NCBI RefSeq assembly: GCF_004010195.1 | Contig: NC_057759.1 | Span: 662,236 to 717,453, forward strand | From: Chiloscyllium plagiosum | Taxonomy: Eukaryota | DNA: 55,218 nucleotides | Direction of reading: 5' to 3' | Shown: positions 1,231-28,214 of the stretch, piece by piece | Numbering within the stretch: position 1 is the first letter of the stretch | Layout: each line of letters begins with the position of its first letter | The notes under the pieces: model-generated | What the model saw: only the letters and a program-made list of their open reading frames with translations | Database searches by the model: none | What the model was told of the DNA's origin: nothing | Position numbers and translations under genes: made by a program

Positions 1231-1849
1231 GGAATGATACAAATATTTCAGCTCGTGGGTGCGCAATTTCTTCCCTTGCGTCTCACAATGACGTGGGTAG
1301 CACTTGAACAGGTCCTGGGCATATATTTATGGTTATGCATTTTCAGAGCTGCAACACATCCTTTTCTGTAATTTGGCCCTGTTTGAAAACATCACTACAT
1401 GAATTTATTTCCCCGAGTTCACTCACTACCATTTTTCTTTCTACACGGTTATTTCTCACGTGATATATTCGTGTAAGATCTCACTCATCCAACAAGAGGA
1501 GGTTGTAGGTGGCGAAGGGAAGGTAGCCTAGTCATTGTGAAGAATAGGAACTCAGCACGATCAGGCGCTGGTGTAGTGTGTGGTTGAACTGTTAACTGTG
1601 TTGCTTTGTTTTTCCACTTTTTCAGGAAAGACTGTAATATTTTACCGTTTCGCTTTGTTTTCTTTATTTTTCAGCTTTGTACCACGATTATGTACCTAAG
1701 GGGGGCGGATGCACCTATAGCCTTCAGATTGCGTCACGTGTGGCAACTTGTAAACTTTTCACTGTGCTCATGTGACAATAAATCCAATTAATCTGATTCA
1801 TTTCCTGTCGGTCTACACATCGATGGCTATTTGGTTGTAAATGGGCCCT

Positions 1850-3524: not shown

Positions 3525-3861
3525 AGCAGCCCAATTTAAAGCTACCAGTGAACAGCCCACTTCCGGCTTTATGCTAGAGGGAAGGCCATTGATACTGCAG
3601 CTGCTGATAGCCCACAGTGCCTCATGAAATATTCAAGAAACCGTCTCTTCTTATGGGTGTGTGTCTGCGTATTTGGGAAGGGAGTGTTCCTTGTGCCTTA
3701 CGTCACATTTTTGCAACTTTACAATTTGTTACTTCAGATTCAATTACTCCAATAAATCTCTGAATACAGTAACACATTTGAAAATGTCCCAGGTTACTAA
3801 ATCAATCTGGTAAACTTACCAACAGGCTAATGCATAATTTGTTGGCTTTCTTTCCTCACAG

Positions 3862-4769
3862 GTAACGTAGTTACGATCTACGTTCTTCTTTATAAAGATT
3901 GTGGACTGTCTCCATGTGTCAGACGTTACCTGGAGGCCATGGCAGTGGCGGATCTACTGGTCATTATCCTGGACCTGATACTGAGACACATTCCTATTGT
4001 TTATCCAGAACGATTTTATTTCCTGCTGTCCATCCGCATGTGTAATATCCACGCGGTTCTGCTTTATGCAGCCACTGACTGCTCTGTCTGGTTCACCGTC
4101 ACTTTCACTTTCGATCGATTTGTTGCCATTTGTTGCCAGAAGCTGAGAAGTAAGTATTGTAGTGAGAAAATAGCGGCTGTGATTCTGGCAACAGTGACTA
4201 TACTGGGTTGTTTAAAGAACATTTTCTGGTATTTTATGCTCACACATTGGTATCGGCGGTGGAATTCTCCCGTCTTTTGTTATGTAACACGTGAGGTTTA
4301 TTCCTCTCAAGTCTGGGCCACAATCGAATTCCTGCATCACATTCTCACCCCAATTCTCCCATTTTTCCTGATTCTTCTGCTCAATGTTTTCACAATCAGA
4401 CACACTTTGGTGACAAGCAGAACCCGTAAGAGACTCTGGGCTCACACCAAAGGGGGCACTCAGTGCGACATAGAAATGCAAAATCGAAAGAGGTCTATTA
4501 TTTTACTGTTTATGATCTCGGTCAATTTCATCCTGTTTTGGTCAATGTTGATGGTGTTTTCTTTTTGGAAACGGATGTATTATTTGGGGTATAAATCTAT
4601 GTTTCTACATTGGTTTGTGATGGAATTGGGCTTCATGATGCAGCTCCTCACCTGCTGCACAAACACTGCGATTTATGCCGTAACTCAGACTAAATTCAGA
4701 CTGCAGCTGAAGAATGTGTTGAAATATCCTTTTACCCAAATTCATCCATCAATCAAAATCACTAAGTAA
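3862..4769 (+). CDS. GPR139/GPR142-like class A orphan GPCR, large terminal coding exon (end of TM1 through C-terminus); first exon not found in window
   Basis: Acceptor ctttctttcctcacAG ends at 3861. The phase-1 frame reads xNVVTIYVLLYKDCGLSPCVRRYLEAMAVADLLV into the 276-aa ORF, with TM3 CNIHAVLLYAATDCSVWFTVTFTFDRFVAIC and TM7 CCTNTAIY. No stops or frameshifts. Confidence 0.9.
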
Positions 4770-4934
4770 TAAATCAATCCGGGATTTTCTCAATTCAGTT
4801 TAATGTTTCAGTAATGAAACAACCTGTCGCTATGATAACAGACTGAGGGTAATGCTGGTTTGTCCATACTTATCCCACCGGATGTGACAGGGACACATTT
4901 AAATGTTTCTCTCAACTCAGCAGATGATAATAAA
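4768..4934 (+). promoter_or_regulatory. Candidate polyadenylation signals of the GPCR
   Basis: AATAAA at 4768-4773 (overlapping the stop codon) and at 4929-4934. Confidence 0.4.
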
Positions 4935-5271: not shown

Positions 5272-8200
5272 GATGAGGGGAATCACACACCGGTGTTGTG
5301 GGAACAGAGTGGGGAGAGGTTCACAGGCCGTTGCTTGGAGAATAGGGTGGGGATGTGTCAACAGGCCGTTGCTATGTGAAAAGAGCTTGGATGGTGTTAT
5401 GGCATGTTGTGAGGAAAACGAATGAGGGAGGAGTCACATGTCATTGTCAAGGGAAATGATTGGGAATGATGCTAGCGAAACAGAGTGGGGATGGACGTAC
5501 AGTCCCTGGATGGAAGAACAGAATAGAGATACGTTAACAGGACGTTGCTAGGGGAGCAGATTGGGGTTGGGATCATAGTCTGTGACTGGAAGATCAGAAT
5601 TGGGATGGGGTCACAGTCTTTTGCTGTGAGAACAGAATAGGATGGGTTCACTGCCATTTGCTAGGAGAACAGACTGGAGATTGGTTCACAGGCCGTTGCT
5701 GGGTGAACAGAGCGAAGGTGCGTTCACAGAACGTTGCTGGGAGATTGGCGTGGGGATGGTTTACAGCTCGTTGCTAGGAGAACAAAATGGTTCACAGGCC
5801 ATTATTGGGAAACAAAATGGGGATGGGTTCACAGGCCATTGCTGGAACAGAGCGAGGATGGGTTCACAGGCCATTGCTAGGAGAATGGCGTGGGGATAGT
5901 GCCACAGAGAATTCCTGGGGGAAAGCGTGGAAATACAGAAACAGGCTATTGTCAGGAAAAGAGTGTGTGGATCCAATTACAGGCCCTTGCTAAGAGAAGA
6001 GGGTGAGTATGTGCTCACAGGCCGTTGCTAAGTGAAAAGAACGCGGATAGTTTTACAGTATGATGTGAATAGAAAATAATGAGGATGTATTCACAGGTCA
6101 TTGTCTAGGGCAAAGGATGGGGTCACACACTGTTCCTGGGAGAACATTTTGCTGATGAGTTCACAGGCCATTGCTGGGGGAGCAAGGTCGTGATGGGCTC
6201 ACTGGCCATTGCTGGGGATTCCAGGGATGGGAATGAGTTCACAGACCGTTCCTATGGGAAGAGAGTTGCGATTTATTCATAGACGTTTGGCAGATTAGTG
6301 ATTGGTTCAAAGGTCCTTGCTAGGGGAAAAAGATGGGATTGGTTTGACAGGAAGTTAGTAGGTCAACAGAGTGAGGATAGTTTCAGTGTTAGGAGAACAG
6401 AGTCAGAATGAGTTCACAGGCAGTTACTAGGGGAACAGAGTGGGGATGGGTTGGCAGGATGTTGCTCAGTGGAAAGCGTGGGATTGTTCCGGGTTCAGAT
6501 TGTAGGTGGCGTCAGAGGCCATTGCTAGAGGAAGAGAGTGGGGATTGCTTCACAGGCCATTGCTTGGGAGAACAGAATGGGGATGGGTTTACAAGCAAGT
6601 GCTAGAAGAACAGATGAGGATGGATTCAGAGGTTTTTGTGTTTGGAAATGGAGTGCTGATGGATTCACAGCATATTGCCAGGCAGACAGAGTGGGGATGT
6701 GTAGATAGACTGTTGCTAGGAGAACAGAATGGTGATGTGTTCACTGGCCATTGCTGGGGGAAGCGAATTGGCATGGATTCTCAGGAGAACATAGTGGGGA
6801 TGTGTTCAAAATCTGATGCTAGAACAGCCAATGCTATGGAAACAGAGTTGTAATGGGTTTACAGGTCGTGGCTCAAAGAACAGAGTGGGGATCCGTTCCC
6901 AGGACGTTGTTCGGGAGCAGAGTGGGGATCGATTCACAGGCCGTGATTAGAAGAACAGAGGGAGTATGGGTTCACAGGCCGTTGCTAGGAGATCAGAGTG
7001 GAGATGGGTTCACAGATTGTTGACAGAGGAGCAGATTGGGGATACTAGCGGAAGAGAGTTGTGATTTATTCATAGATGTTTGGTAGGGGAACAGCGTGGT
7101 GTTGGGTTTGCAGGTTGTTGCCAGCGGAACAGGGTGGGAACGGCGTTAAAGGCTGTGGCTAAGACAACAGAGTTGGTATCGTTTCAGAGACCGTTGCGAG
7201 GTGAACAGGCTGAGGATGAGTTCACAGGCCGTTGATCAGACAACAAAAGGACGATCGTTTCATAGGTCCTTGCTGGTGAACAGAGCGAGGATGGGGTCAA
7301 AGGATGTTGCTAGGAGAAAAGCGCGGGGATACGTTCAGAAACTTTTGTTATGGGAAAAAATGCGGTTGGGTTCACAGATAGTTATAGATTTGTGATAGGT
7401 TCGTAGTCCATTGCTGTGAGAACACAGTACGGTTGGTTTCACAGTTCTTAGAAGAACAGAGTGGGGATGGGTTCTCACATAGTTGCGAGGGAACAGAATG
7501 ATGATGGGGTCATAGCCCGTTGCTACAGGAACAGATTGGATATGGGTTCGCAGTCTGTTGCTAGGAGAACACAGTGCGGATGGATTCACAATCTATTGCC
7601 GGGGAAAGGAGAAGAGATTGATTCTTAGGCCGCTGCGAGGTGATAAAGTGGTAACTGGTTCAACTGCCATTGCGAGGAGATCAGAGAAGGGATGTGGTCA
7701 CAGGGAGTTGCGAGGTAAACAGGGTGGAAATACGAAAACAGGCCACTACCAGGAAAACAACGTATAAATGGCGTCATGGGCCGTATATGGGAGAACATTT
7801 TGGAGTTCAGTCAGGGGGAATAGGGTGAAGATGGGTTCACAGGCAATTGCCAGGTAAACAGAATAAGGATGGATTTACAGGCTAATGCTAGGAGAACAGA
7901 GTGGGAATGGGTTGCCAGATTATTGCTTGGATAATAAGGTAGGTATGGAATCACAGAGAATTGCTAGGAAAACAGGTTGAGAATGTGGACACAGACCGCT
8001 AGCAGGACAACCGTGTGTGGATGGGCTCAAATGTCGTTGCTGGGAGAGCTGAGTATGGTTGCGATCACAAAACGTTGCTGGAGGAACAGATAGGGGATTG
8101 GTTCACAAGTGCAAGATAGTTAGGATTTTTTCACAAGCGGTTGGTCGGGGAACAGCGGGGTGATGGTTCATAGGTTGTTGCTCGCCAAACAGGATGGGAA

Positions 8201-11057
8201 TGGACTGTCAGGCCGTTGTTAGGACCACAAAATGGGGATGGTTTCAGAGACCGTCGCTATGAGAACAGTGCAAGGATGAGCTCACAGGCATTTGCAAGGA
8301 GAGCACATTAGGAATGAGTTCACTGGCCATTGCTGGGAGAGCAGACTGAGGGTATGGTCACAGTGAGTTGCTACGAGAACTGGGTGGGATTGCAGAAATA
8401 GGACACTAGCAGGATTTGTTCAGTAGTGTTGATTTGGTCACAGGTCGCTTATGGGAGAACATTTCGGGGATGAATTCATCGGCTATTGTTAGGCGAACAG
8501 GGTGAGGATGGGTTAACAGGCAGTTGCAATGGAAACAGAGTGAGGATGGGTTTACAGTCTGATGCTAGGAGAGCAGAGTGGGGATCGGTTCACTGGCCGT
8601 TGCTAGGAGATCGGAGTTGGGATATAGTTATAGGTCGTTGCTCGGAGAAAAGAGTGCAGATGGGTTCACATGTCGTTGATAGAGGAGCAGATTGGAGATC
8701 GATTCGCAGTGTTTTGCTAGGGGAACAAAGTGACGATAAGATTACAGGCTGTTGCTAGGAGAACAGATTAGGATGACATCACTGACTGTTGCGAGGAGAG
8801 CAGTCAGGCGATGTGGTCACAGGGTGTTGCTAGGGGTACAGGGTGGGAACACGGAAACAGGCCGTTACCAGGATAACAGTGTGTGGATGCGTTCATAGGC
8901 CATTTATGTGAGAATATTTTGGGGAGGGGTTCACGGGCCATTACTAGCGTGAATAGAGTGAGGTTGGGTTCACAGGCAGTTGCGAGGGAAACAGAGTGAT
9001 GGTGGGTTTACAGGCTGATGCTAGGAGAAAAGAGTGGGGAACAGTTTACAGATCATTGCAAGAAGAATATATTAAGGTTGTGGCCACACGGTCTTTCTCG
9101 GGGAACAGGGTGAGAATGCGGACACAGACCGCTACCAGGACAATAGTGTATGAATGGGTTCACAGATCGTTGCTAAGTGACCAGAGTGAGAATGAGTTCA
9201 AGGCAAATGCTCGGAAAACAGAAGGGGATGGCTTCACAGGCCCTTGCTAGGGAATTGGACTGGGATGGGGTCACGAGATGTTGCTAAGAGAAAAGCGTGA
9301 GGATGTGTTCAGACACCGTTGCTATGGGAAAAGAGTGAGGTTGGGTTCACAGGCAGTTGCTAGCGGAACAGCGCGAGGATTGGTTCAATGGCAGTTGCAA
9401 GGGGAACAGAATGAGGATAGGTTTAAAGGCGGATGTTAGGAGAACAGAGTGGGGAACAGTTCGCAGATCATTGTCAAGAGAAAAGATTCAGGATGGTGTC
9501 ACAGGTACTTGCTGTTGGAACAGGGTGAGAATGCAGACACAGACCGCTATCAGGAGAACAATGCGTGGATGGGTTCACAGGTCGTTGCTGGGAGACCAGA
9601 GTGAGGATGAGTTCAAGCCAATTGCTCGCAGAACAGAAGGATATTCACAGGCCCTTGCTCAGGAACATGGCGGGGTCAGGTCACGTAATGTTGCTAAGAG
9701 AAAAGGGTGGGGTTGTGTTCAGACACTTTTGCGACAGGAAAATAAAGGATGGGTTCACAGGCATCGAGATTGGTTCATAGACAGTTGTTGGCAGAACACC
9801 ATGGGGATGGGTTTACAGGCAGTTGCTGGGGAACATTCTGGGGATGGAGTCACAGGTCATTGCTCTGTGAACAGAGTGCGGCTAGGCTCACAGGTTTTGG
9901 TGAGAAGTAGAGAGTGGGGATAGATTCAATGGCCGTTTCGCGGGAAACGGAATGGGAATGGGGTCGCGGACTGATGCAAGGGGAACGGACTGTGAATCGG
10001 TTTACAGACAATTGTTCCGGGAACAGGGTGGATGTGGGGTCACAGTCGTTGCTAGGGGAGAAGATTGGGTATGGTTTCAAAGTCTGTTGTCAGGTGTACA
10101 GAGAGGAGATGGGAGCACACTCAGTTGACATTAGAACAGAGTAGGGATGGAGTCACACACCATTGCTGGGAGAAATCAATGGGGATGGGTTCAAATGCAG
10201 TTGTCAAGGAAACAGAGTGCAGATGGCTTCAGAGTCCATGGCTAGGAGAACAGAGTGGGGATGGGTTCACATGTACTTGCTATGAAACAGAGTGGTAATG
10301 TGCTTACAGGCCGTTGCCAGCGGAAAAGATTCAGTTGGGTTCACAGTCGGTTACTAGGAGAACACAGTGCAGATGGATTAACAATATGTTGCCAACGGAA
10401 AAGTGTAGGCTGTTACGAAGAGAACAGAGTAATAATTGGTTCAACTGCCGTTTCGAGGAGATCAGAGTGGGAATGTGGTCAAATGGAGTTGCGAGAGGAA
10501 AAGGCTGGGAATACAGACACAGGCCGGTACCAGGAGAACAGTGTGTGGATGGCGTCACAGCCTGTTTATGAGTGAACATTTTGGAATCGGTTAAAAGGCC
10601 ATTCATGGGGGAACAGTGTGTTGATGGATTCACAGGCAGTTGCAAGTGGAACAGAGTAAGGATGGGTTGACAGGCTAATGCACGGAGAACAGAATGGGGA
10701 AGGTATCCAAAATCAGTGCGTGGAGAATTGAATAGGTACCGTGATAAAGAGACTTGCTAGTGGAACAGGGTGAGAATGCATATGCAGACCACAGGAGAAC
10801 AGTGTGTGGATGGTAGGCCACAGTGGGATTACGATGACAGACAGTTGCTAGAGGAAACAAAATGGGGATTGTTTGATAAGCCGTTGTTAGGGAAAGAGAG
10901 TGGGGATTTAATCATGCGCGGTTGATGGGGGAGCAGCGTGGTGTTGGGTTCACAGGTAGTTGCCAGCAAAACGGGATGGGAATGAACTGATAGGCCGTTG
11001 CTGAGACAAAAGTGTGGAGATAGTTTCAGGGACGGTTGCTACAAGAACAGATTTGGG
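5272..11057. repeat. Degenerate 38-bp tandem array (minisatellite), about 150 units, copy 1
   Basis: By-eye consensus GGGGATGGGTTCACAGGCCGTTGCTAGGAGAACAGAGT; tgggttcacag at 6967 and 7005 gives a period of 38. Confidence 0.93.
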
Positions 11058-11069
11058 CAACACTATTTC

Positions 11070-11465
11070 GCCAGCATTACTTGCCCTGTGCTGATTTTTC
11101 TCTTGAGGTGGCGGAATATCTACTGCAGTCCGTGTGCTGCAGGTTAACGCACATTGCCCTTAGAGGGTAAGTGAAACTGAGTCCACAAAAGATCAACGAT
11201 GATCTTATTGAATGGTGGAGCAAACTGATTGTCCTACTCCTGCTGCTATTTCTTATTTTCTGATGAAGGAAATTTCAAGAATCTGACGTAACAACACGGA
11301 AGAAACAGGCGATAAATTTCAAAGGTGAGATGATGACGGGCTCCGAGGGGAACTTACAGGGACTGGTGTTCCTATATATCTGCTACCCTTGTTCATAAGT
11401 AGTTGTGGGATTGTAAGGTGCTGTCTAAGGGACTTTGATGAATTTCCACAGTGAGTCTTATACAG
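11070..11465 (-). mobile_element. 3' end of a second LINE family (L2/CR1 group); duplicate near 19565-19960
   Basis: ccagcattacttgccc...actgcagtccgtgtgctgcagg...gaggggaacttacaggg...atctgctacccttg; similar to 47775-48200 and antisense to 24961-25250. Confidence 0.65.
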
Positions 11466-11534
11466 AGTAAATGTTTTCAGTTTAGTGCCCCCTCTTCAAA
11501 ACAGTTCCATGAACTCTGGTTGAACGAATGTTTT

Positions 11535-11745
11535 GAGAGTGTGGTGCTGGAAAAGCACAGCAGGTCAGGCAGAACCTGTGGAGCATGAGAATCGACGTTT
11601 CGGGCACAACCTCATTCGTAATGAAGGGTTTATGCCTGAAGCATCGACTCTCCTGCTCCTCAGGTGCTGCCTGACTTGCTGTGTTTTTCCAGAACCGCAT
11701 TCTTGACTCTGAATTCTAGCACCTGCAGTGCTCAGTTTCTCCTCC
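11535..11745. mobile_element. Palindromic short repeat (about 170-bp hairpin), Penelope pLTR-like or MITE-like
   Basis: Left arm gtgtggtgctggaaaagcacagcaggtcaggcag...atcgacgtttcgggca pairs with right arm tgcctgaagcatcgactctcctgctcct...ctgcctgacttgctgtgtttttccagaaccgcat. Confidence 0.8.
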
Positions 11746-12154
11746 TTGAGTGAATGTCTGTCCCTTTCTCTTTTCCTGTCAAATGGATTCGCTGTGTTCA
11801 CTGGAGGTTCCATTAGCCGATTCTGATAACAGCAAAATTATCAGTCGTTGTTTTAGGGTTTTGAACAATTTGGGACTAAATTTGAAACTGATTGTAGTCA
11901 ATGTGTGGTTGTGAAGTACTTTGACCTCTTTTCTTCCTGCAGTTCCCGCTAAGTCAAAAAGTCAGACAACTAACATAACAACAAACCCCTTCAGTGAATC
12001 AAACATTCACTCAGGACTTTCCCTCTGGTTCAATTGTATATTGAAATATTTCGTCATCAGTCACAAGGTGCAAGATTCCAAGAGGCTGGAAGAATATTGA
12101 CTGCTCAAGGGTAAATAAATTCCAAGTCAAGCCTGTGAGTCCAGACACACTATG

Positions 12155-12562
12155 ATCCATGAGTTTAGAAGACTGAGAGGGAATCTGATTGAGATGTATG
12201 AGATTATTAAAGGATTGGACACTATGGAGGCAGGAAACATGTTTCCGCTGATGGGTGAGTCCCGAACCAGAGGGCACAGCTTAAAAATAAGGGATAGGCC
12301 ATTTAGGACAGAGATGAGGAGAAAGTTCTTCACCCAGAGAGTGGTGGATGTATGCAATGCTCTGCCCCAGAAGGCAGTGGAGGCCCAGTCTCTGGATTCG
12401 TTTAAGTAAAAGTTGGATAGAGCTCTCAAGGATAGTGGAATCAAGGGTTATGGAGATATGGTAGTAACAGCATACTGATTAAGGATGATCATAATGAATA
12501 GTTGTGCAGGCCCGAAGGGCAGAATGGCCTACTCCTGCACTTATTGTCTATTGTATATTGTC
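12155..12562 (+). mobile_element. 5'-truncated CR1 LINE 3' end; duplicate near 20645-21048
   Basis: FRRLRGNLIEMYEIIKGLD...FFTQRVV; tail ttattgtctattgtatattgtc; very similar to 47337-47772. Confidence 0.9.
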
Positions 12563-13601
12563 AAAGATAAAATAGATTGAAAAGGATGCAGCTGATGACT
12601 GTGATGTCAGTGAGTCCAATGACAGATATGCGTTCAATATATAGAACACACATGTCTGTCGTACTAACTGGGAATTTTCAACATGTGCGAGAGTGGTTAT
12701 CTCATAAACGTGATCCAGTTTTTATGAGGAAGGAACCAAAAAAGATCGATGAGGACAGACCAATAGACGTTTTTCATATGAAATTTAGTATTGCCTTTGG
12801 CAGGGTTCCAAATGGTAGACTGTGTAGTAAGGTTAGATCACAAGGGGATCTAGGGAGAGCAAGCCAACTGGATACAAAATTATCTTGATATAAGAGGCAG
12901 AAAGTGGAGGTAAAGATTTGCTCTTTGGTCTGGGGGCCTGTGACCTACCACGAGTCAGAGGAATCAGAGCTGGGTCCACTGTTGTTCATCATTTACATAA
13001 ATGATTTCGATGGGAATACTGCGGCAAAGTTTGGTGGCATAATGGACATTCACAACGGCAAAGTAAAAGTATATTAAGATCTTGATCAAAAGGGCCAATT
13101 GNNNNNNNNNNNNNNNNNNNNNNNNNNNNNNNNNNNNNNNNNNNNNNNNNNNNNNNNNNNNNNNNNNNNNNNNNNNNNNNNNNNNNNNNNNNNNNNNNNN
13201 NNNNNNNNNNNNNNNNNNNNNNNNNNNNNNNNNNNNNNNNNNNNNNNNNNNNNNNNNNNNNNNNNNNNNNNNNNNNNNNNNNNNNNNNNNNNNNNNNNNN
13301 NNNNNNNNNNNNNNNNNNNNNNNNNNNNNNNNNNNNNNNNNNNNNNNNNNNNNNNNNNNNNNNNNNNNNNNNNNNNNNNNNNNNNNNNNNNNNNNNNNNN
13401 NNNNNNNNNNNNNNNNNNNNNNNNNNNNNNNNNNNNNNNNNNNNNNNNNNNNNNNNNNNNNNNNNNNNNNNNNNNNNNNNNNNNNNNNNNNNNNNNNNNN
13501 NNNNNNNNNNNNNNNNNNNNNNNNNNNNNNNNNNNNNNNNNNNNNNNNNNNNNNNNNNNNNNNNNNNNNNNNNNNNNNNNNNNNNNNNNNNNNNNNNNNN
13601 N

Positions 13602-16600
13602 GAAATGATTGGGAATGATGCTAGCGAAACAGAGTGGGGATGGACGTACAGTCCCTGGATGGAAGAACAGAATAGAGATACGTTAACAGGACGTTGCTAG
13701 GGGAGCAGATTGGGGTTGGGATCATAGTCTGTGACTGGAAGATCAGAATTGGGATGGGGTCACAGTCTTTTGCTGTGAGAACAGAATAGGATGGGTTCAC
13801 TGGCATTTGCTAGGAGAACAGACTGGAGATTGGTTCACAGGCCGTTGCTGGGTGAACAGAGCGAAGGTGGGTTCACAGAACGTTGCTGGGAGATTGGCGT
13901 GGGTATGGTTTACAGCTCGTTGCTAGGAGAACAAAATGGTTCACAGGCCATTATTGGGAAACAAAATTGGGATGGGTTCACAGCCCGTTGCTGGAACAGA
14001 GCGAGGATGGGTTCACAGGCCATTGCTAGGAGAATGGCGTGGGGATAGTGCCACAGAGAATTCCCGGGGGAAAGCGTGGAAATACAGAAACAGGCTTTTG
14101 TCAGGAAAAGAGTGTGTGGATCCAATTACAGGCCCTTGCTAGGAGAAGAGGGTGGGTATGTGCTCACAGGCCGTTGCTAAGTGAAAAGAACGCGGATAGT
14201 TTTACAGTATGGTGTGAATAGAAAATAATGAGGATGTATTCACAGGTCATTGTCTAGGGCAAAGGATGGGGTCACACACTGTTCCTGGGAGAACATTTTG
14301 CTGATGAGTTCACAGGCCATTGCTGGGGGAGCAAGGTCGTGATGGGCTCACTGGCCATTGCTGGGGATTCCAGGATGGGAATGAGTTCACAGACCGTTCC
14401 TATGGGAAGAGAGTTGCCTACTATTCATAGACGTTTGGCAGATTAGTGATTGGTTCAAAGGTCCTTGCTAGGGGAAAAAAGATGGGATTGGTTTGACAGG
14501 AAGTTAGTAGGTCAACAGAGTGAGGACAGTTTCAGTGTTAGGAGAACAAAGTCAGAATGAGTTCACAGGTAGTTACTAGGGGAACAGAGTGGGGATGGGT
14601 TGGCAGGATGTTGCTCAGTGGAAAGCGTGGGAATGTGCTCAAAAACCATTGTTCCTGGTTCAGATTGTAGGTGGCGTCAGAGGCCATTGCTAGTGGAAGA
14701 GAGTGGGGATTGCTTCACAGGCCATTGCTTGGGAGAACAGAATGGGGATGGGTTTATAAGCAAGTGCTAGAAGAACAGATGAGGATGGATTCAGAGGTTT
14801 TTGTGTTTGGAAATGGAGTGCTGATGGATTCACAGAATATTGCCAGGCAGACAGAGTGGGGATGTGTACATAGACTGTTGCTCGGAGAACAGAATGGTGA
14901 TGTGTTCACTGGCCATTGCTGGGGGAAGCGAATTGGCATGGATTCTCAGGAGAACATAGTGGGGATGTGTTCAAAGTCTGATGCTAGAACAGAGCTGGGT
15001 TTAGCTTAGGCCATTGCTAGGGGAACAGAATGGGGATGGGTTCATAGGCAGTTGCTCAGGGAACAGAGTGAGAATGGAGTCACAGGCCATTGCTACGGGA
15101 GTAGAGTCGTGATAGGCCAGGGTCTTTTGCCAGGAGAACAGAGTGTGGATTATTTCAGTCCGTTGCTGCGGGGAAGGAGCAGGGATGGGGTCACAGACCA
15201 TTGCTCAGAAAATAGAGTCGGGAGGGGTTCACAGGCAGCTGTTAGGAGAACAGACTGGGAATGGGGGTCCCAGGCCATTGCCATTGGAAAAGGGTTGGAA
15301 TACGTGCAAAGGCCAATGCTATGGAAACAGAGTTGTAATGGGTTTACAGGTCGTGGCTCACAGAACAGAGTGGGGATCCGTTCACAGGACATTGTTCGGG
15401 AGCAGAGTGGGGATCGATTCACAGGCCGTGATTAGAAGAACAGAGGGAGTATGGGTTCACAGGCCGTTGCTAAGAGATCAGAGTGGAGATGGGTTCACAG
15501 ATTGTTGACAGAGGAGCAGATTGGGGATACTAGCGGAAGAGAGTTGTGATTTATTCATAGATGTTTGGTAGGGGAACAGCGTGGTGTTGGGTTTACAGGT
15601 TGTTGCCAGCGGAACAGGATGGGAACGGCGTTAAAGGCTGTGGCTAAGACAACAGAGTTGGTATCGTTTCAGAGACCGTTGCGAGGTGAACAGGCTGAGG
15701 ATGAGTTCACAGGCCGTTGATCAGACAACAAAAGGACGATCGTTTCATAGGTCATTGCTGGTGAACAGAGCGAGGATGGGGTCAAAGGATGTTGCTAGGA
15801 GAAAAGCGCGGGGATACGTTCAGAAACTTTTGTTATGGGAAAAAATGCGGTTGGGTTCACAGATAGTTATAGATTTGTGATAGGTTCGTAGTCCATTGCT
15901 AGGAGAACACAGTACGGTTGGTTTCACAGTTCTTAGAAGAACAGAGTGGGGATGAGTTCTCACATAGTTGCGAGGGAACAGAATGATGATGGGGTCATAG
16001 GCCGTTGCTACAGGAACAGATTGTATATGGGTTCGCAGTCTGTTGCTAGGAGAACACAGTGCGGATGGATTCACAATCTATTGCCGGGGAAAAGAGAAGA
16101 GATTGATTCTTAGGCCGCTGCGAGGTGATAAAGTGGTTCAACTGCCATTGCGAGGAGATCAGAGAAGAGATGTGGTCACAGGGAGTTGCGAGGTAAACAG
16201 GGTGGGAATACGAAAACAGGCCACTACCAGGAAAACAACGTATAAATGGCGTCATGGGCCGTATATGGGAGAACATTTTGGAGTTCAGTCAGGGGGAATA
16301 GGGTGAAGATGGGTTCACAGGCAATTGCCAGGGAAACAGAATAAGGATGGATTTACAGGCTAATGCTGGGAGAACAGAGTGGGAATGGGTTGCCAGATTA
16401 TTGCTTGGATAATAAGGTAGGTATGGAATCACAGAGAATTGCTAGGAAAACAGGTTGAGAATGTGGACACAGACCGCTAGCAGGACAACCATGTCTGGAT
16501 GGGCTCAAATGTCGTTGCTGGGAGAGCTGAGTATGGTTGCGATCACAAAACGTTGCTGGAGGAACAGATAGGGGATTGGTTCACAAGTGGAAGATAGTTA

Positions 16601-19553
16601 GGATTTTTTCACAAGCGGTTGGTAGGGGAACAGTGGGGTGATGGTTCATAGGTTGCTGCTCGCCAAACAGGATGGGAATGGACTGTCAGGCCGTTGTTAG
16701 GACCACAAAATGGGGATGGTTTCAGAGACCGTCGCTATGAGAACAGTGCAAGGATGAGCTCACAGGCATTTGCAAGGAGAGCACATTAGGAATGAGTTCA
16801 CTGGCCATTGCTGGGAGAGCAGACTGAGGGTATGGTCACAGTGAGTTGCTACGAGAACTGGGTGGGATTGCAGAAATAGGACACTAGCAGGATTTGTTCA
16901 GTAGTGTTGATTTGGTCACAGGTCGCTTATGGGAGAACATTTTGGTGATGAATTCATCGGCTATTGTTAGGCAAACAGGGTGAGGATGGGTTAACAGGCA
17001 GTTGCAATGGAAACAGAGTGAGGATGGGTTTACAGTCTGATGCTAGGAGAGCGGAGTGGGGATCGGTTCACTGGCCGTTGCTATGAGATCGGAGTTGGGA
17101 TATAGTTATAGGTCGTTGCTCGGAGAAAAGAGTGCAGATGGGTTCACATGTCGTTGATAGAGGAGCAGATTGGAGATCGATTCGCAGTGTTTTGCTAGGG
17201 GAACAAAGTGACGATAAGATTACAGGCTGTTGCTAGGAGAACAGATTAGGATGACATCACTGACTGTTGCGAGGAGAGCAGTCAGGCGATGTGGTCACAG
17301 GGAGTTGCTAGGGGTTCAAGGTGGGAGCACGGAAACAGGCCGTTACCAGGATAACAGTGTGTGGATGTGTTCATAGGCCATTTATGTGAGAATATTTTGG
17401 GGAGGGGTTCACGGGCCTTTACTAGCGTGAATAGGGTGAGGTTGGGTTCACAGGCAGTTGCGAGGGAAACAAAGTGATGGTGGGTTTACAGGCTGATGCT
17501 AGGAGAAAAGAGTGGGGAACAGTTTACAGATCATTGCAAGAAGAATATATTATGGTTGTGGCCACACGGTCTTTCTCGGGGAACAGGGTGAGAATGCGGA
17601 CACAGACCGCTACCAGGACAATAGTGTATGAATGGGTTCACAGATCGTTGCTAAGTGACCAGAGTGAGAATGAGTTCAAGGCAAATGCTCGGAAAACAGA
17701 AGGGGATGGCTTCACAGGCCCTTGCTAGGGAATTGGACTGGGATGGGGTCACGAGATGTTGCTAAGAGAAAAGCGTGAGGATGTGTTCAGACACCGTTGC
17801 TATGGGAAAAGAGTGAGGTTGGGTTCACAGGCAGTTGCTAGCGGAACAACGCGAGGATTGGTTCAACGGCAGTTGCAAGGGGAACAGAATGAGGATAGGT
17901 TTAAAGGCGGATGTTAGAAGAACAGAGTGGAGAACAGTTCACAGATCATTGTCAAGAGAATAGATTCTGGATGGTGTCACAGGTACTTGCTGTTGGAACA
18001 GGGTGAGAATGCAGACACAGACCGCTATCAGGAGAACAATGCGCGGATGGGTTCACAGGTCGTTGCTGGGAGACCAGAGTGAGGAGGAGTTCAAGCCAAT
18101 TGCTAGCAGAACAGAAGGGTATTCACAGGCCCTTGCTCAGGAACATGGCGGGGTCAGGTCACGTAATGTTGCTAAGAGAAAAGGGTGGGGTCATGTTCAG
18201 ACACCGTTGCGACGGGAAAAGAAAGGATGGGTTCACAGGCATTGTAAGAACACCAGAATCGAGATTGGTTCATAGACAGTTGTTGGCAGAACACCGTGGG
18301 GATGGGATTACAGGCAGTTGCTGTGGAACATTCTGGGGATGGAGTCACAGGTCATTGCTTTGGGAACAGAGTGCGGCTAGTCTCACAGGTTTTGGTGAGA
18401 AGTAGAGAGTGGGGATAGATTCAATGGCCGTTTCGCGGGAAATAGAATGGGGATGGGGTCGCGGGCTGATGCAAGGAGAACAGACTGTGAATCGGTTTAC
18501 AGACAATTGTTCCGGGAACAGAGTGGAGGTGGAGTCACAGTCGTTGCTAGGGGAGAAGATTGGGTATGGTTTCAAAGTCTGTTGTCAGGTGTACGGAGAG
18601 GAGATGGGAGCACACTCAGTTGACATTAGAACAGAGTGGGGATGGAGTCACACGCCATTGCTGGGAGAAATCAATGGGGATGGGTTCAAATGCAGTTGCC
18701 AAGGAAACAGAGTGCAGATGGCTTCAGAGTCCATGGCTAGGAGAACAGAGTGGGGATGGGTTCACATGTACTTGCTATGGAACAGAGTGGTAATGTGCTT
18801 ACAGGCCGTTGCCAGCGGAAAAGATTCAGTTGGGTTCACAGTCAGTTACTAGGAGAACACAGTGCAGATGGATTAACAATCTGTTGCCAACGGAAAAGTG
18901 TAGGCCGTTACGAAGAGAACAGAGTAATGATTGGTTCAACTGCCGTTTCGATGAGATCAGAGTGGGAATGTGGTCATATGGAGTTGCGAGAGGAAAAGGC
19001 TGGGAATACAGACACAGGCCGCTAGCAGGAGAACAGTGTGTGGATGGCGTCACAGCCTGTTTATGGGTGAACATTTTGGAATCGGTTAAAAGGCCATTCC
19101 TAGGGGGAACAGTGTGTTGATGGGTTCACAGGCAGTTGCAAGTAGAACAGAGTAAGGATGGGTTGACAGGCTAATGCGCAGAGAACAGAATGGGAAAGGT
19201 TTCCAAAATCAGTGCGTGGAGAATTGAGTAGGTTCCGTGATAAAGAGACTTGCTCGTGGAACAGGGTGAGAATGCGTATGCAGACCACAGGAGAACAGTG
19301 TTTGGATTGTAGGCCACAGTGGGATTACGATGACAGACAGTTGCTAGAGGAAATAAAATGGAGATTGGTTGATAAGCCGTTGTTAGGGAAAGAGAGTGGG
19401 GATTTAATCATGCACGGTTGATAGGGGAGCAGCGTGGTGTTGGGTTCACAGGAGGTTGCCAGCAAAACGGGATGGGAATGAAATGATAGGCCGTTGCTGG
19501 GACAAAAGTGTGGAGATGGTTTCAGGGATGGTTGCTACAAGAACAGATTTGGG
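13602..19553. repeat. Degenerate 38-bp tandem array, copy 2
   Basis: Colinear with 5453-11057, plus 320 extra bp at 14993-15312. Confidence 0.93.
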
Positions 19554-20029
19554 CAACACTATTTCGCCAGCATTACTTGCCCTGTGCTGATTTTCCTCTT
19601 GAGGTGGCGGAATATCCACTGCAGTCCGTGTGCTGCAGGTTAACGCATATTGCCCTTAGAGGGTAAGTGAAACTGAGTCCACAAAAGATCAACGATGATG
19701 TTATTGAATGGTGGAGCAAACTGATTGTCCTACCCCTGCTGCTATATCTTATTTTCTGATGAAGGAAATTTCAGGAATCTGACGTAATAACACTGAAGAA
19801 ACAGGTGATAAATTTCAAAGGTGAGATGATGACGGGCTCCGAGGGGAACTTACAGGGACTGGTGTTCATATGTATCTGCTACCCTTGTCATAAGTAGTTG
19901 TGGGATTGTAAGGTGCTGTCTAAGGGACTTTGATGAATTTCCACAGTGAGTCTTATACAGAGTAAATGTTTTCAGTTTAGTGCCCGTTCTTCAAAACAGT
20001 TCCAGGAACTCTGGTTGAACGAATGTTTC

Positions 20030-20240
20030 GAGAGTGTGGTGCTGGAAAAGCACAGCAGGTCAGGCAGAACCTGAGGAGCATGAGAATCGACGTTTCGGGC
20101 ACACCCTCATTCGTAATGAAGGGTTTATGCCTGAAGCATCGATTCTCCTGCTCCTCAGGTGCTGCCTGACCTGCTGTGTTTTTCCAGAACCAAATTCTTG
20201 ACTCTGAATTCCAGCACCTGCAGTGCTCAGTTTCTCCTCC
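20030..20240. mobile_element. Palindromic short repeat, duplicate of 11535-11745
   Basis: Same inverted arms as copy 1. Confidence 0.8.
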
Positions 20241-21224
20241 TTGAGTGAATGTCTGTCCCGTTCTCTTTTCCTGTCAAACGGATTCGCTCTGTTCATTGGA
20301 GGTTCCATTAGCCGATTCTGATAACAGCAAAATTATCAGTCGTTGTTTTAGGGTTTTGAACAATTTGGGACTAAATTTGAAAGTGATTGTAGTCAATGTG
20401 TGGTTGTGAAGTACTTTGACCTCTTTTCTTCCTGCAGTTCCCGCGAAGTCAAAAAGCCAGACAACTAACATAACAACAAACCCCTTCAGTGAATCAAACA
20501 TTCACTCAGGACTTTCCCTCTGGTTCATCGCAATTGCATATTGAAATATTTCGTCATCAGTCGCAAGGTGCAAGATTCCAAGAGGCTGGAAGAATATTGA
20601 CTGCTCAAGGGTAAATAAATTCCAAGTCCAGAGACACTATGATCCATGCGTTTCGAAGACTGAGAGGGGATCTGATTGAGATGTACGAGATTATTAAAGG
20701 ATTGGATACTCTGGAGGCAGGAAACATGTTTCGCTGATGGGTGAGTCTCGAACCAGAGGGCACAGCTTAAAAACAAGGGATAGGCCATTTAGGACAGAGA
20801 TGAGGAGAAAGTTCTTCACCCAGAGAGTGGTGGATGTATGCAATGCTCTGCCCCAGAAGGCAGTGGAGGCCCAGTCTCTGGATTCGTTTCAGAAAATGTT
20901 CGATAGAGCTCTCAAGGATAGTGGAATCAAGGGTTATGGAGATAAGGCAGGAACAGACAATTGATTAAGGATGATCATAATGAATAGTTGTGCAGGCCCG
21001 AGGGGCAGAATGGCTTACTCCTGCACCTATTGTCTATTGTCTATTGTCAAAGATAAAATAAATTGAAAAGGATGCAGCTGATGACTGTGATGTCAGTGAG
21101 TCTAATGACAGATATGCGTTCAATATATAGAACACGCATGTCTGTCGTACTAACTGGGAATTTTCAACATGTGCGAGAGTGGTCATCTCATAAACGTGAT
21201 CCAGTTTTTATGAGGAAGGAACCA

Positions 21225-22310
21225 AAAAAGATTGATGAGGACAGACCAATAGACGTTTTTCATATGAAATTTAGTAACGCCTTTGGCAGGGTTCCAAATG
21301 GTAGACTGTGTAGTAAGGTTAGATCACAAGGGGATCTGGGGAGAGCAAGCCAACTGGATACAAACTTATCTTGATATAAGAGGCAGAAAGTGGAGGTAAA
21401 GATTTGCTCTTTTGTCTGGGGGCCTGTGACCTACCACGAGTCAGAGGAATCAGAGCTGGGTCCACTGTTGTTCATCATTTACAGAAATGATTTCGATGGG
21501 AATACGGCGGCAAATTTTGGTGGCATAATGGACATTCACAACGGCAAAGTAAAAGTATATGAAGATCTTGATCAAAAGGGCCAATTGGCCGAGGATTCGT
21601 AGATGGGGTTTACTTCAGATAAATGTGATCTCTTGCATTTTGGTTAGAGAAACTATGGCAGGACTTGCACATTTAATGGTGAGACATAGGGAATATTTCC
21701 AAACGAAGAGACGTAGCCTATACACAATTGCTCGAATGTGGCATCACACATAGATCGAGTGGTGAAGATGGCTTGCCTTAATCGGTTCGTATATTGAGTA
21801 GAGGAGTCCGGCAATCACTTTATGGATGTAAAGACGTTATTAATGCCACTTTTGGAGAACTGTGCACAATTCTGGTTGCTATGCTAATCGGAAGGATGTT
21901 ATTAGACTGGAAAACGGTGCAGTACAGAATCGAAAGGATGCTACCATTACTGAAAGATTGCAGCTATAAGTAGGAGCTGGAAAAACAGGGCTTTTCTGTC
22001 TGGAGAATAGAAGGCTGAGGGCTGACTTTGCAGATGTGTATAAAATCATGAGCAGGACAGATAAGTTGAAGAACCAGGACCTTTTCCCGAGAGTAAAGGA
22101 ATCCTAATTTGGAGGATGGTGCGCATATGGAATGAATTCCAGAGGAAGTGAGAGATGTAAACATAATTAAAACACTTGAAAGATGATTGTACGGGTACAC
22201 AAGTAGGAAATGCTCAGAGGAGGACCCAGAAAAGCGAATATTGCCTTTTGGAAAAATTATCAGCATGCACGATTTGGACCATACTGTCTGTTTCCATATT
22301 GCATTACCTC
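21225..22310 (+). mobile_element. Old CR1 LINE RT and 3' fragment; 5' part also at 12740-13101
   Basis: IDEDRPIDVFHMKFSNAFGRVPNGRL and ELGPLLFIIYRNDFD, plus a decayed gtctggagaatagaaggctgagg segment. Confidence 0.8.
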
Positions 22311-22499
22311 TGAGACATGTATAAAATCACATTCTCTTCAATACCAACGGACAAGCAGTAGAGCACACACCTACAAAATACACTGCACACATTTAGCAAG
22401 GTACCAAAGAAAGCATTTTTCCAAAGGCCAGAGATAACAACTCGAAGGTCAAGAGCAGTTAATGCATGGAATCTTGAATCGGGGATCAAATATAACCAG

Positions 22500-23575
22500 C
22501 GTCAGCTAGAGATAGCTTCACGAGTGAAGCAGTTTTGCAATAACCAGTCGGGAAAAGTGGAGAGCATTTAAACATTGGAGAGAGGCTTCACAAATATCCC
22601 CATTCCCAGTACAGGGGGAATGCAACCCATTAGTGCAAAACATAATCTTGAAGCATTTACAAAAGTCTTCAGCCGAAGTCTTGAGGGATTGGACTATCTC
22701 AACCATCTCCAGAAATTTGCAAATGGTCTCTCAGAAAAAAATGATTCACTTTGCTTGATGTTGAGAAACAGGGTGTTGCACTGGATAACGTAAAAGACCC
22801 TGACAAGAGTCTGCAGCAAAATTGAATTCGTGTGTTCCAACAGTCCTGTGCCCGAGGCAAGGTATTCCAGTGAAGTTACACATGGGCATCGAATCAAGAA
22901 GGTGGAAATTTGTCTCGATATGTCCTGTGCATAAAAAGCTGTTCAGATTCGAATCAGACGATTACAGTCACATCAATCTATTCTCGATCATTAGTAAAGT
23001 GTTGGAAAGAGACATCCACATAATATTATCAGTGTGCAATTCTGCTCTGTACTGCACAGATCACAGTCCACGCAGCTCTTAACATCATCCCAGCTTCGAT
23101 TGAAGCATGGAAAAAGAGCTGTTCTTGAGAAGTAATGATAGAGAATAACTGCTAATTTAGTAGGTACTTTTTTATTCATTCATGGAATGATGGCGTTGCT
23201 GGCTGGGCCAGCATTTATTGGCCATCCCTAATTATTCTGAGGGCAGTTAAAAGTCAACTGCATTGCTGTAGGTCTTGAGTGACATGGAAGCGAGACCAGG
23301 TTCATTTCTTTCCCTAAACGACATTAGGGAACCAGGTGGGTTTTGCTTGACAATTGACGATCAGTTTGTGGAAATTATTAGACTCTTAATCGTAGATTTT
23401 TAATTTTTGGAATTCAGGTTCGACCATCTGCTGTGGTAGGGTTTGAACTCGGATCTCCAGGACTGGGTTTCTGGTTTAAGCGAAAATACCAAAAGTTCTT
23501 TGCCTCCCCTGATGACCAATGCCACATGTCACCTAATGTGGCATCAAGGAGCCAAGCAAAGCTAGAGTCAACAGC
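22500..23575 (+). mobile_element. Decayed RT fragment of the L2/CR1-group LINE, interrupted by a SINE
   Basis: ICPVHKK...DYSHINLFSIISKVLE (NYRPISLLS motif); resumes after the SINE with VWHQG (gtgtggcatcaagga-like). Confidence 0.65.
23168..23475 (-). mobile_element. tRNA-derived SINE, second family
   Basis: tttattcattcatgg...gccagcatttattg...ccatctgctgtggtagggtttgaactc; antisense homologue of 26872-27197. Confidence 0.8.
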
Positions 23576-23579
23576 GTAC

Positions 23580-24960
23580 AGTTCGAGAAAATTAGATATC
23601 GTTCATTTTGGAAGGGAGAAAAAAATAACATTATCTAATTTAAACGGGAAAAAAACTAGAAATACGTAAGATTTAGGGCTCTTTTACATGAAATACAGAA
23701 AGCTAGCATATCAGTGCAGCAGATTATCAGGAAAACGAATAGAATTTTGTCCCTAATTTCAAAGTGGCCAGAGACAAAAGCAAGGAAGTTTACTGAAACT
23801 GTATAAAGTGCTGGTGAGAGCAAAACCTGGAGTTCTATGAACAGCTTTGATGTTCCTATTTAAAGAAATATAGTTTGTTAATAGATATTGCAAACAGTTG
23901 CGGTCCCAGAATTGAACTTGGTAGCATCTCGTACGTCACTGCCTGCTAATCTGAAAGGGAATCGTACATTCCAAATCTCGTCTTCCTGTCTGCGAAACAG
24001 TTCTCTTTCACTGTCAATGCAGTACCTCTGATACCATGGGCTTGAATTTTTTTAAAAAATAATCTCTTATGAAACGTCCAGATTAACAATACCTACTCGT
24101 CCAGTCTACTGGTCACAGCCTCAGAAAGTTCTTGAAAATACATGATTTCTGTCTAGTGAATCCATGCTGACTCGGACCAATTCTGTTTCTGTTTTCCAAA
24201 TGCTCAGTTACTAAATCCTTAGTAATTGACTCCAGCATTTTCCGCACCACCGATGCCAGATTAACCAGCCTACAATACCCTTTTTCTTTCTCCCGTCTTT
24301 CTGACAGAGTGGAGTTACATTAAGTACTGTCCTGACTAAGTGGAGCTCTTCCAGAATCTAAAGAATGCTGGGAAAAGATCAACAACGAATCCAATATTTC
24401 TAAGTCTCTTTGTTAAGTACTTTGTGATGAAGTGCATCAAGTACAGTCTCTTGCAGATGAACAGACTTTGGGAAATGATGAGCTGAGTCATTGCTGAATA
24501 ATTCCTAGCCTTCAACCTAACCTCGTAGTCTTTGAATTTACATAGAATTTACCATCTAACTTGGTGGGATTCAAATCTGGTTCTAATAAATTATAGTGAA
24601 TATAATCCTAAACAATTCTGTCTCTCTCCATCCATCAGTCCATGCCATCCCAGGAAACAGTCTGGGAAACATTTACTGCGGTTCCTCCGTGGACAGAACA
24701 TTCTTCCTCAGATAAGGAGACCCCAAACTTTGCACACAATACTCCAAGATGTACATTTGCAGCAAAACATCCATATTCCTGCACACGAAACTTCTCACTT
24801 TGAAGGCCAACATCTCATTTAAACCTATTCACCGCCTGCTGCTCCTATAATGTTCATTTTCAGCGACTTATTGGATCTTCTACCTTTCCCAAATATTGAC
24901 GTTCAGATAATAATCCATCTTCCTGTTTTTACATTTAATTGGATAATCTCACTTTGATCC
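23580..24960. mobile_element. Mosaic of CR1 fragments (about 23580-23880 +; 23950-24440 -; 24620-24960 -)
   Basis: IVHFGR and ctgtataaagtgctggtgaga on +; tgaatccatgctgact and gcacacaatactccaag (reverse complement of LEYCVQ) on -. Confidence 0.7.
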
Positions 24961-25250
24961 CCACAATTGCTTCCATCTAGAAGGATAAGGACAGAAGGTG
25001 GGAACACCATCCCTTGAGAGTTCCCCTCTGAGCCACTCACCATGCTTTAGAAAACCATTAGTCATTCCTTTTGTGTCGCGGGATCAAAATGCTGGAATTC
25101 CCTCCCTAAGTGAGGCCACCTTGAACATGTGGGAGAACAGTCGCTCAAGAAGGGAGCTCACTGTCACATTCTCAAAGAAACATCTAGAGGCAAGGCAACA
25201 AATGCTGGGCCCAGCTGGGGATGCTGACGTCACATAAGTGAATTAAAACA
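24961..25250 (+). mobile_element. 3' end of the L2/CR1-group LINE; longer copy near 29910-30250
   Basis: ccatctagaaggataagg...ttcccctctgagccactcacc...tcaagaagggagctcac...aaatgctgggcccagc. Confidence 0.7.
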
Positions 25251-26159
25251 AAATCAAAAGCCTTCTTTGCTCCAAACAAAACGACCCCAGTTAATCCAGC
25301 CTCTCTTCATTGCCAAAACGCTCTTTCCCAGGGACATCTCCTCCTGACCCACCTCCCCCTATGCAATTACATCATTCCAATAGTGGGGAGAGTGGAACTG
25401 CATACATTGCTCCAGCTTTGTCCTCACCAATGTCCTGTCCAACTCCAACATCATCTGCCTGCTTCTACAATGTACAGAACACACCACAGCAGCAGGTGGG
25501 ACTTGAACGCTGACCTTGCAGCTCTAAGGTAGGGTCAGTATCGCTGTGCTACCAGATTGCTAGCTTTCAAGCCTGGAACTGTCTGCTGGTGAATCCCATT
25601 TTCTTCTGATACTCATTTCTACCTGCACCCAAACTGCCCTCTCCCGCCTCTTCTGAATTCCTGCTCCCACTCAATTCCGATTTCATTCCGATATCATTCA
25701 ATTGCATGATACCAAGGCTGACCCTGATGATCACTGAATCACATACACCCCATGAACCTCAGTGACAACTCTTAGACAGAAGACAGACTGGATGGAAATG
25801 TTATGCAAATATTCCATGCAAGTAAGAAGCAAGGAGACAGACAGAGGAGATGAAGCTTGTTAAATTCTATGGTCCGACTGATGAAGCGTTGTAAAGTAAA
25901 GACTGTGTACATATAACAAACGTGTGGGCTTTACGATAAAAACAGTATTTCACAAAGCATTTAACTCCACACATTTTCTTCCGGTGTAACTATTTTCACA
26001 TCATTGCATCTGTCGTTCTATTCCAGACCTCACAGACCGCTGGTTTTTACATTTACCAAGGCCACATTTTGGCTGCTGGTGGTCTTTCGAAATTTATATC
26101 TGCCTCTCCATCGCTCTCGTGTACTTCTCTGAGGATTGAACTGTTCAGTTGCTCCATGT

Positions 26160-26436
26160 AGGGTGAGAGGGGAAAGATATAAATGAGACCTAAGAGACAA
26201 CCTTTTACCCACAGAGGGTAGTACATATATGGAATGAGCTGCTAGAGGCAGTGTTGGAGGCTAGTACAATTGCAACATTTAAAAGGCATCTGGATAGGTA
26301 TATGAATAGGAATGGTTTAGAGGGATATGGGCTGGGTGTTGGCCGGTGGGACTAGATTGGGTTGGGATATCTGGTCGACATGTACGGGTTGGACTGAAGG
26401 GTCTGTTTCCATGCTGTACATCTCTATGACTCTATG
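26160..26436 (+). mobile_element. CR1 3' end; duplicate at 31160-31435 with a tandem extra copy
   Basis: ggtgagaggggaaagatataaa...tggaatgagctg...ctctatgactctatg tail; same family as 850-1140. Confidence 0.9.
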
Positions 26437-28165: not shown

Positions 28166-28214
28166 CAGAGCTCCTTTCCCACTCCATCACCATTTAGGAC
28201 AGTGTTGAGGGATA

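What the first reader, a model, noticed from the sequence alone, without database searches (positions are those of the whole stretch)
5272..11057. 5.8-kb G-skewed 38-bp array immediately downstream of the GPCR
Seen: about 150 head-to-tail units of roughly GGGGATGGGTTCACAGGCCGTTGCTAGGAGAACAGAGT starting ~500 bp after the GPCR stop codon. Units are heavily diverged but the period is largely kept. The consensus has 16 G vs 6 C on the gene's sense strand and one TGCT (WGCW) per unit. I see no TE insertion in 5.8 kb, although the rest of the window is saturated with TEs. Established: G-rich repetitive tracts with WGCW motifs form R-loops and are AID targets in tetrapod Ig switch regions. Inference: this may be an undescribed satellite linked to the GPR139-like cluster, acting as an R-loop, pausing or recombination platform that promotes tandem gene amplification. 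It may equally be a neutral minisatellite.
Basis: partly seen in the sequence, partly recalled or inferred. Interest (0 to 1): 0.72.

Follow-up and report, generated by a model that had tools for sequence, protein, structure and literature searches.

The report
Fossil minisatellite beside shark receptor gene
This is a real but old, decaying block of 38-base repeats next to a shark receptor gene; it mutates as fast as the DNA around it, has relatives at many other bamboo-shark loci, and lacks the hallmarks of an antibody switch region.

Summary
The switch-region reading fails. WGCW density equals the rest of the window (18.7 vs 19.3/kb), AGCT is depleted (4 vs 14.9 expected), there is no canonical G-quadruplex motif, and no Ig domain was found in 37 ORFs scanned. 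Two related species carry the same array, colinear and at single-copy depth, diverged 5.1% and 6.2%, the same as the flanks: a frozen, neutrally decaying repeat roughly ten times older than their split. The family is dispersed: ORFs spelled by it occur in 12 gene models on 11 Chiloscyllium punctatum scaffolds. Absence of transposons is confirmed, but its significance is uncertain (P 0.001-0.26). Co-location with other GPR139-like genes could not be tested. The scan's notes hold no sequence match to this repeat. Ordinary; apparently undescribed.

The parts
5272..11053 (+). Decayed 38-bp tandem array, 156 units, G-rich on the + strand, with old multi-unit internal duplications
   Evidence: 1370 of 5727 aligned bases (23.9%) differ from the consensus
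13602..19546 (+). Second copy of the array (matches 5453-11050; 132 substitutions in 5590 aligned bases, 2.4%); probably the other haplotype, placed in tandem by the assembly
13102..13601 (.). 500-N scaffold gap; copy 1 of the duplicated segment ends at its left edge and copy 2 starts at its right edge
14992..15311 (+). 320 bp of array present in copy 2 and in organism B but missing from copy 1 at 6827: a deletion in copy 1, out of unit phase
   Evidence: (X9 record 19)
3863..4769 (+). Open main exon of a shark 'GPR139-like' class A GPCR (7tm_1); the stop-to-stop ORF starts at 3831; first exon not identified in the window
4768..4934 (+). Two AATAAA hexamers (4768, 4929) between the stop codon and the array; use as poly(A) signals is inferred
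11054..13101 (.). Downstream flank with high-copy interspersed repeats (depth up to 10^5-10^6), duplicated with the array at 19550-21587 (70 substitutions in 2036 bases, 3.4%)

Best explanation
A fossil minisatellite of a dispersed carpet-shark family. A 38-bp unit (possibly a dimer of an older 19-mer) was amplified in tandem long ago, and blocks of several units were then duplicated again within the array (inferred from shared derived bases). Homogenisation then stopped, most likely because the units became too different to recombine (inferred). Since then the block has been inherited as ordinary single-copy DNA, losing G and C by neutral mutation and losing a few hundred bases now and then by deletion (shown across three species). 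It does nothing that selection maintains at sequence level. Related arrays at other loci spread by segmental duplication (inferred). The second copy in the window is most likely the other haplotype.
For: Divergence from organism B is 217 of 4277 bases in the array vs 70 of 1210 in flanks (5.1% vs 5.8%, Fisher p=0.34); from organism C 203 of 3270 vs 65 of 1042 (6.2% vs 6.2%, p=1.0). The GPCR exon is lower, 14 of 347 and 15 of 467. Orthologous contigs run colinearly through the array and across its upstream junction at single-copy depth. Unit-to-consensus distance is 0.29 (JC), 9-11 times one lineage's share of the species split. Mean unit-to-unit identity is 62%, adjacent units 63%, with no gradient along the array. 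Decay looks neutral: C and G retained 69% and 72% vs A and T 81% and 84%; C>T 14.5% equals G>A 14.4%; the CpG columns are among the least conserved, 47% and 61%. Two six-unit blocks share 34 and 33 derived bases vs a permutation maximum of 25 in 200. No coding signal: 71-87 stops per frame; 0 Pfam hits for 4 array ORFs. Family elsewhere: 10 of 19 profile hits are C. punctatum 'hypothetical proteins'; with 2 cluster members they make 12 models on 11 scaffolds, only 28-46% identical to this array's translation, so paralogous arrays.
Against: No transposon entered 5.8 kb during a long history; depending on the insertion count assumed, P is 0.26 to 0.001 or lower, so some exclusion may be real and is unexplained. 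The 38-bp period is well kept for such diverged units. A function that depends only on G-richness or length would not show in a substitution-rate test. The interspecies comparison rests on 16 contig pieces of two runs. One 415-nt piece folds slightly better than shuffles (z -2.5), one test only. For the haplotype reading: 2.4-3.4% between copies is about half the species distance and far above the 0.07-0.08% heterozygosity reported for the whale shark (PMC8455134, passages).
Confidence: 0.8

Rival explanations
1. A composition-based Pol II pause/terminator. Read-through RNA from the GPCR enters the G-rich sense strand about 340 bp past the AATAAA, forms R-loops and helps termination. It could be an incidental property or a selected one.
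For: Position and strand fit. GGG runs are 28.7/kb vs 10.1/kb in the rest of the window. G-rich pause sites downstream of poly(A) signals form R-loops in human genes (PMC3145960, passages). The gene-array junction is kept in three species.
Against: No constraint on sequence. G runs are decaying (GGGG kept in 23% of units); G4Hunter reaches 1.2 in 4.2% of windows and 1.5 in 0.5%. In the one RNA run laid, 15 of 17 array bins had depth 0 and two had 0.12-0.14, but the reads on the exon came from paralogues and the library is poly(A) single-cell, 2% read, so this is a weak test.
Confidence: 0.08
2. A module that travels with GPR139-like genes and promotes their tandem amplification by ectopic recombination between arrays.
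For: The gene family is very large (1745 hits) and the repeat family is dispersed. In organism B, contigs of other arrays have depth 89-154 and contigs of GPCR paralogues 82-202, against 15-24 for single copy, compatible with co-amplification, though the table lists only the deepest joints.
Against: At this locus the array is single-copy and unrearranged over three species. The ends of the window duplication sit at a scaffold gap, not at unit junctions. Summed contig depth is 22-118 over most array bins vs about 10,000-23,000 over the exon in X1, so close paralogues of the gene do not bring close copies of the array. None of 120 GPCR homologues includes repeat-derived sequence.
Confidence: 0.07
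3. A remnant of a transposon or endogenous virus that carried an internal tandem array.
For: Dispersal over at least 11 scaffolds needs a vehicle. LINE fragments of the window have similar G-skew.
Against: No terminal repeats or transposon ORFs bracket the array and no window repeat matches the unit (best 11 bp, E 1.1). No exact match in viral contigs. Dfam and Repbase could not be searched.
Confidence: 0.04
4. An Ig-switch-like AID target.
For: Long, repetitive and G-rich on the sense strand, with TGCT in the consensus.
Against: AGCT 4 observed vs 14.9 +/- 3.8 in 100 dinucleotide shuffles; WGCW 108 vs 104.4 +/- 6.9. The neighbour is a GPCR and no Ig domain was found in 37 ORFs scanned. Shark Ig loci lack conventional switch regions (PMC8201067, passages).
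Confidence: 0.01

Closest known systems
Decayed GC-rich minisatellites / short-unit satellite arrays with higher-order blocks (general class; from my own knowledge)
   Same: Head-to-tail unit of 10-60 bp, strand-asymmetric, multi-unit internal duplications, non-coding, family members at several loci.
   Different: Units are only 62% alike pairwise and the array is frozen across species, not a homogeneous, variable-number array.
Mammalian Ig switch regions (PMC2442634, passages)
   Same: Several kb long, repetitive, G-rich on the sense strand.
   Different: AGCT depleted, WGCW not enriched, no Ig constant exons or I-promoter found, lies 3' of a GPCR.
G-rich pause elements (MAZ, beta-actin) in Pol II termination (PMC3145960, passages)
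   Same: G-rich sense strand a few hundred bases past an AATAAA.
   Different: A 5.8-kb degenerate array with decaying G runs; no transcription or R-loop evidence.
Y-linked satellites of the white-spotted bamboo shark (PMC11406177, passages and 2 supplement files)
   Same: Tandem repeats in a bamboo shark.
   Different: Three 10-11-base motifs of this unit occur 0 times in the two supplement files held as text, which include the Y satellite table; exact-match search only.
Heterotype false duplications in assemblies (PMC8081667, passages)
   Same: Diverged near-copies in tandem with ends at a scaffold gap.
   Different: Applies to the second copy only; divergence here (2.4-3.4%) is high for alleles.

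Membership tests
Ig class-switch (S) region | Dense AGCT/WGCW AID hotspots | tested here: not met
   AGCT 0.7/kb vs 3.3/kb in the rest of the window; WGCW 18.7 vs 19.3/kb
Ig class-switch (S) region | G-rich sense strand, kb-long tandem repeats | tested here: met
   34.5% G, 14.5% C, 156 units
Ig class-switch (S) region | Upstream of Ig heavy-chain constant exons | tested here: not met
   No Ig domain in 37 N-free ORFs of 100 aa or more scanned, of 76 listed (the rest span N gaps or lie in the duplicate copy); shorter exons not scanned
Ig class-switch (S) region | Germline transcription and somatic junctions in B cells | not testable with these tools
   One poly(A) single-cell run, near-zero depth on the array, tissue unknown to me
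Minisatellite / short-unit satellite | Head-to-tail unit of 10-60 bp beyond chance | tested here: met
Minisatellite / short-unit satellite | Non-coding | tested here: met
   71-87 stops in each of six frames, unit length not a multiple of 3, no Pfam or Rfam hit
Minisatellite / short-unit satellite | Ongoing homogenisation or copy-number turnover | tested here: not met
   Colinear in three species; only deletions of 320 bp (copy 1) and about 186 bp (organism B) among the long pieces
Abundant centromeric/heterochromatic satellite | High copy number in long homogeneous blocks | tested here: not met
   Summed depth 12-118 vs about 5 for single copy in X1, at 85% likeness; more diverged members would be missed
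G-rich Pol II pause terminator | G-rich sense strand just past a poly(A) signal | tested here: met
   AATAAA at 4929, array from 5272; use of the signal not shown
G-rich Pol II pause terminator | Transcription-dependent R-loop and termination | not testable with these tools
   No DRIP or nascent-RNA data
Transposon-internal array | Unit inside a known element consensus, shared flanks | tested here: inconclusive
   No match to window repeats or viral contigs; Dfam/Repbase unavailable

The most novel reading that the evidence does not exclude
The 38-bp arrays are a standing 3' module of the hugely expanded shark GPR139-like genes: G-skewed on the sense strand, free of transposons, acting as composition-based pause/R-loop terminators and co-amplified with the genes.
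Probability: 0.1. Interest if true: 0.6.

Novelty: new member of a known kind. Interest (0 to 1): 0.18.

Why it matters
As it stands it matters little: one more unannotated repeat family. It has two practical uses. It produces false 'hypothetical protein' models (12 in the C. punctatum set), and as a frozen array it is a neutral clock for carpet-shark mutation rates. If the arrays proved tied to GPR139-like genes, they would offer a mechanism for a very large shark receptor expansion on which my two literature searches found no paper.

Tried and rejected
No whole genome is held for this window, so genome-wide counts and co-location could not be computed. Exact motif scans found 0 stretches in viral contigs and 0 in metagenome contigs. 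GPCR locus scans confirmed 0 of 89 metagenome and 0 of 35 viral candidates. A word-based protein search with the array-ORF alignment scored 0 of 6503 candidates. To test co-location through C. punctatum gene numbers I searched shorter GPCR forms (6 hits, none from that gene set) and looked up 10 GPCR clusters (none held such a model): untestable this way. No RNA holder was listed by the run index. Rfam 0 matches, ARAGORN 0; the bacterial promoter scan is not meaningful here. Seven of the 19 profile hits (P0130-P0132, P0136-P0139) are unrelated low-complexity proteins and were dropped; two more (P0127, P0135) look like the repeat but are unnamed. The 19-bp half-unit symmetry (9 of 19 positions) is weak and not relied on. 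TGCT is retained 1.26 times the base expectation, no more than several non-WGCW 4-mers (1.3-1.55), so I rejected motif-specific selection. The first exon of the GPCR was not found. Literature: 10 searches gave no description of this repeat; subscription papers, the older shark satellite literature, Dfam, Repbase and bioRxiv supplements were not visible.
Full report
Observation. The array exists as described. Identical 8-mers recur 58 times at distance 38, against at most 6 in 20 shuffles. The array begins 502 bp after the stop codon of an ORF (3831-4769) that matches 7tm_1. The ORF has 1745 relatives; 119 of the best 120 are named shark proteins, mostly 'probable GPR139', the closest 76-80% identical from zebra, whale and bamboo sharks. 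The window is therefore from a carpet shark (inference).

A second copy of the array lies at 13602-19546, inside a duplication of 5453-13101 at 13602-21587. The copies differ by 2.4% in the array and 3.4% in the flank. Copy 1 ends exactly at a 500-N gap and copy 2 starts exactly after it; a second duplication (24718-28848 vs 29349-33905, 124 of 3982 bases, 3.1%) has the same geometry around another 500-N gap. That is the pattern of haplotype contigs placed end to end (PMC8081667, passages). In run X1, same species, array contigs have depth 3.9-5.8, like neighbouring single-copy pieces (4.3-5.3). At three sites that distinguish the copies (5993, 6006, 6063) the two letters have depths 2 and 3, summing to 5. 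I put about 80% on haplotypes. Against this: the divergence is very high for alleles, depth is low, and contigs drop variants.

Age and mode of evolution. Runs of two other organisms (B, C) give contigs that run colinearly through the array at single-copy depth, two of them crossing from the GPCR's 3' side into the array. Using all 16 pieces listed for them, array divergence is 5.07% vs 5.79% in flanks for B (p=0.34; one array piece includes about 500 bp of flank) and 6.21% vs 6.24% for C (p=1.0); three pieces spanning a border give 6.0-6.1%; the exon gives 4.0% and 3.2%. So the array is neither conserved nor homogenised. Units differ from the consensus at 23.9% of bases (JC 0.29), 9-11 times one lineage's share of the split. 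Loss is GC-to-AT biased and strand-symmetric, and the CpG columns are among the least conserved. Old block duplications are visible: six-unit blocks at lags 75 and 11 share 34 and 33 derived bases, against a maximum of 25 in 200 permutations. Organism B shares the 320 bp that copy 1 lacks, so this is a deletion; it is 8.4 units long, out of phase, hence not a unit-aligned crossover.

A dispersed family. With no shark genome on hand, I searched predicted proteins with a profile of nine chance ORFs of the two array copies. Of 19 hits, 10 are C. punctatum 'hypothetical proteins', 2 are unnamed repeat-like ORFs and 7 are unrelated; two further C. punctatum models are cluster members. The 12 models lie on 11 scaffolds of 1.5 kb to 1.65 Mb and are 28-46% identical to this array's translation, too low for the orthologue. 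Organism B also has contigs of diverged units at depth 89-154 against 15-24 for single copy, so some other array was multiplied recently. No named hit came from another shark, a weak sign that the family is limited to this lineage. Whether these arrays lie beside GPR139-like genes could not be determined.

Switch-region test. Mammalian S regions are G-rich and built of TGGGG/GAGCT/AGCT repeats, and AGCT density is the feature shared with the AT-rich Xenopus region (PMC2442634, passages). Here AGCT occurs 4 times against 14.9 +/- 3.8 expected; WGCW occurs 108 times against 104.4 +/- 6.9 and at the same density as the rest of the window. A result the other way: WRC is above its shuffle expectation (306 vs 252 +/- 10), but below the window's density (52.9 vs 55.8/kb). 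No canonical four-tract G4 motif is present. No Ig domain was found in 37 ORFs, and shark Ig loci lack conventional switch regions (PMC8201067, passages). It is not a switch region and is unlikely to work like one.

Transposon absence. Self-similarity and RT/EN/ORF1 matches mark 20 segments, about 12.0 of 34.2 kb (35%, a lower bound), outside the array; the longest unmarked stretch is 3.2 kb. A Poisson estimate for none in 5.8 kb gives P=0.034 for 20 insertions (0.0055 per non-repeat base), 0.26 (0.12) if only 8 hand-picked young ones count, and 0.001 for a guessed 40. The array is also defined as the uninterrupted stretch. The deficit is suggestive and unexplained; target-site preference is a possible neutral cause (inference).

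Transcription. One poly(A) single-cell run of the same species (12.96 million records, about 2% of the run) gave depth 0 in 15 of 17 array bins and 0.12-0.14 in two. Reads on the exon carry other letters at every listed site and come from paralogues, so this gene may be silent in that sample and read-through is not tested. The G-rich strand starts about 340 bp past an AATAAA, the geometry of G-rich pause terminators (PMC3145960, passages); this stays a possibility.

Verdict. A real, old, neutrally decaying 38-bp minisatellite of a dispersed bamboo-shark family (confidence 0.8). I found no description of it in 10 literature searches or in two supplement files of PMC11406177 (passages and supplement search); Dfam, Repbase and subscription papers were not visible. 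The scan's earlier notes gave no sequence match to the array or the gene; one note on another piece of this genome reports a decayed satellite, which I did not check. New member of a known kind; interest 0.18.

Noticed in passing
window 5453-21587 and 24718-33905: Two duplications, each with its ends exactly at a 500-N gap, 2.4-3.4% diverged: probably haplotype overlaps. If so, the alleles here differ by about half the distance to the related species, which suggests old polymorphism or introgression.
   Followed up: partly
window 3831-4769: The 'GPR139-like' family is enormous in sharks (1745 clusters; close C. punctatum paralogues on five different chromosome-size contigs), yet two searches found no paper on it, and PMC8455134 speaks of a paucity of GPCRs in cartilaginous fishes. 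Probably more interesting than the array.
   Followed up: partly
window 1290-1390: Faint resemblance to the GPCR's first exon (17 aa, 47%, E 0.09), about 2.5 kb upstream of the main exon; no clear donor site. May be a decayed exon or chance.
   Followed up: partly
window 44293-46407 and 50554-50991: LINE remnants with an SGNH/GDSL esterase-type ORF1 followed by endonuclease/RT sequence; CR1-type by my own knowledge.
   Followed up: no
window 31324-31722, 39983-40289, 54483-54761: Three near-perfect two-copy tandem duplications (200, 153 and 137 bp; 96-97%); may be assembly artefacts.
   Followed up: no
C. punctatum gene models chiPu_0011745, 0014368, 0014827, 0016335, 0016336, 0020833, 0020895, 0021028, 0022221, 0023537, 0024768, 0026706: These 'hypothetical proteins' look like translations of this repeat family and are probably false gene models.
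   Followed up: partly
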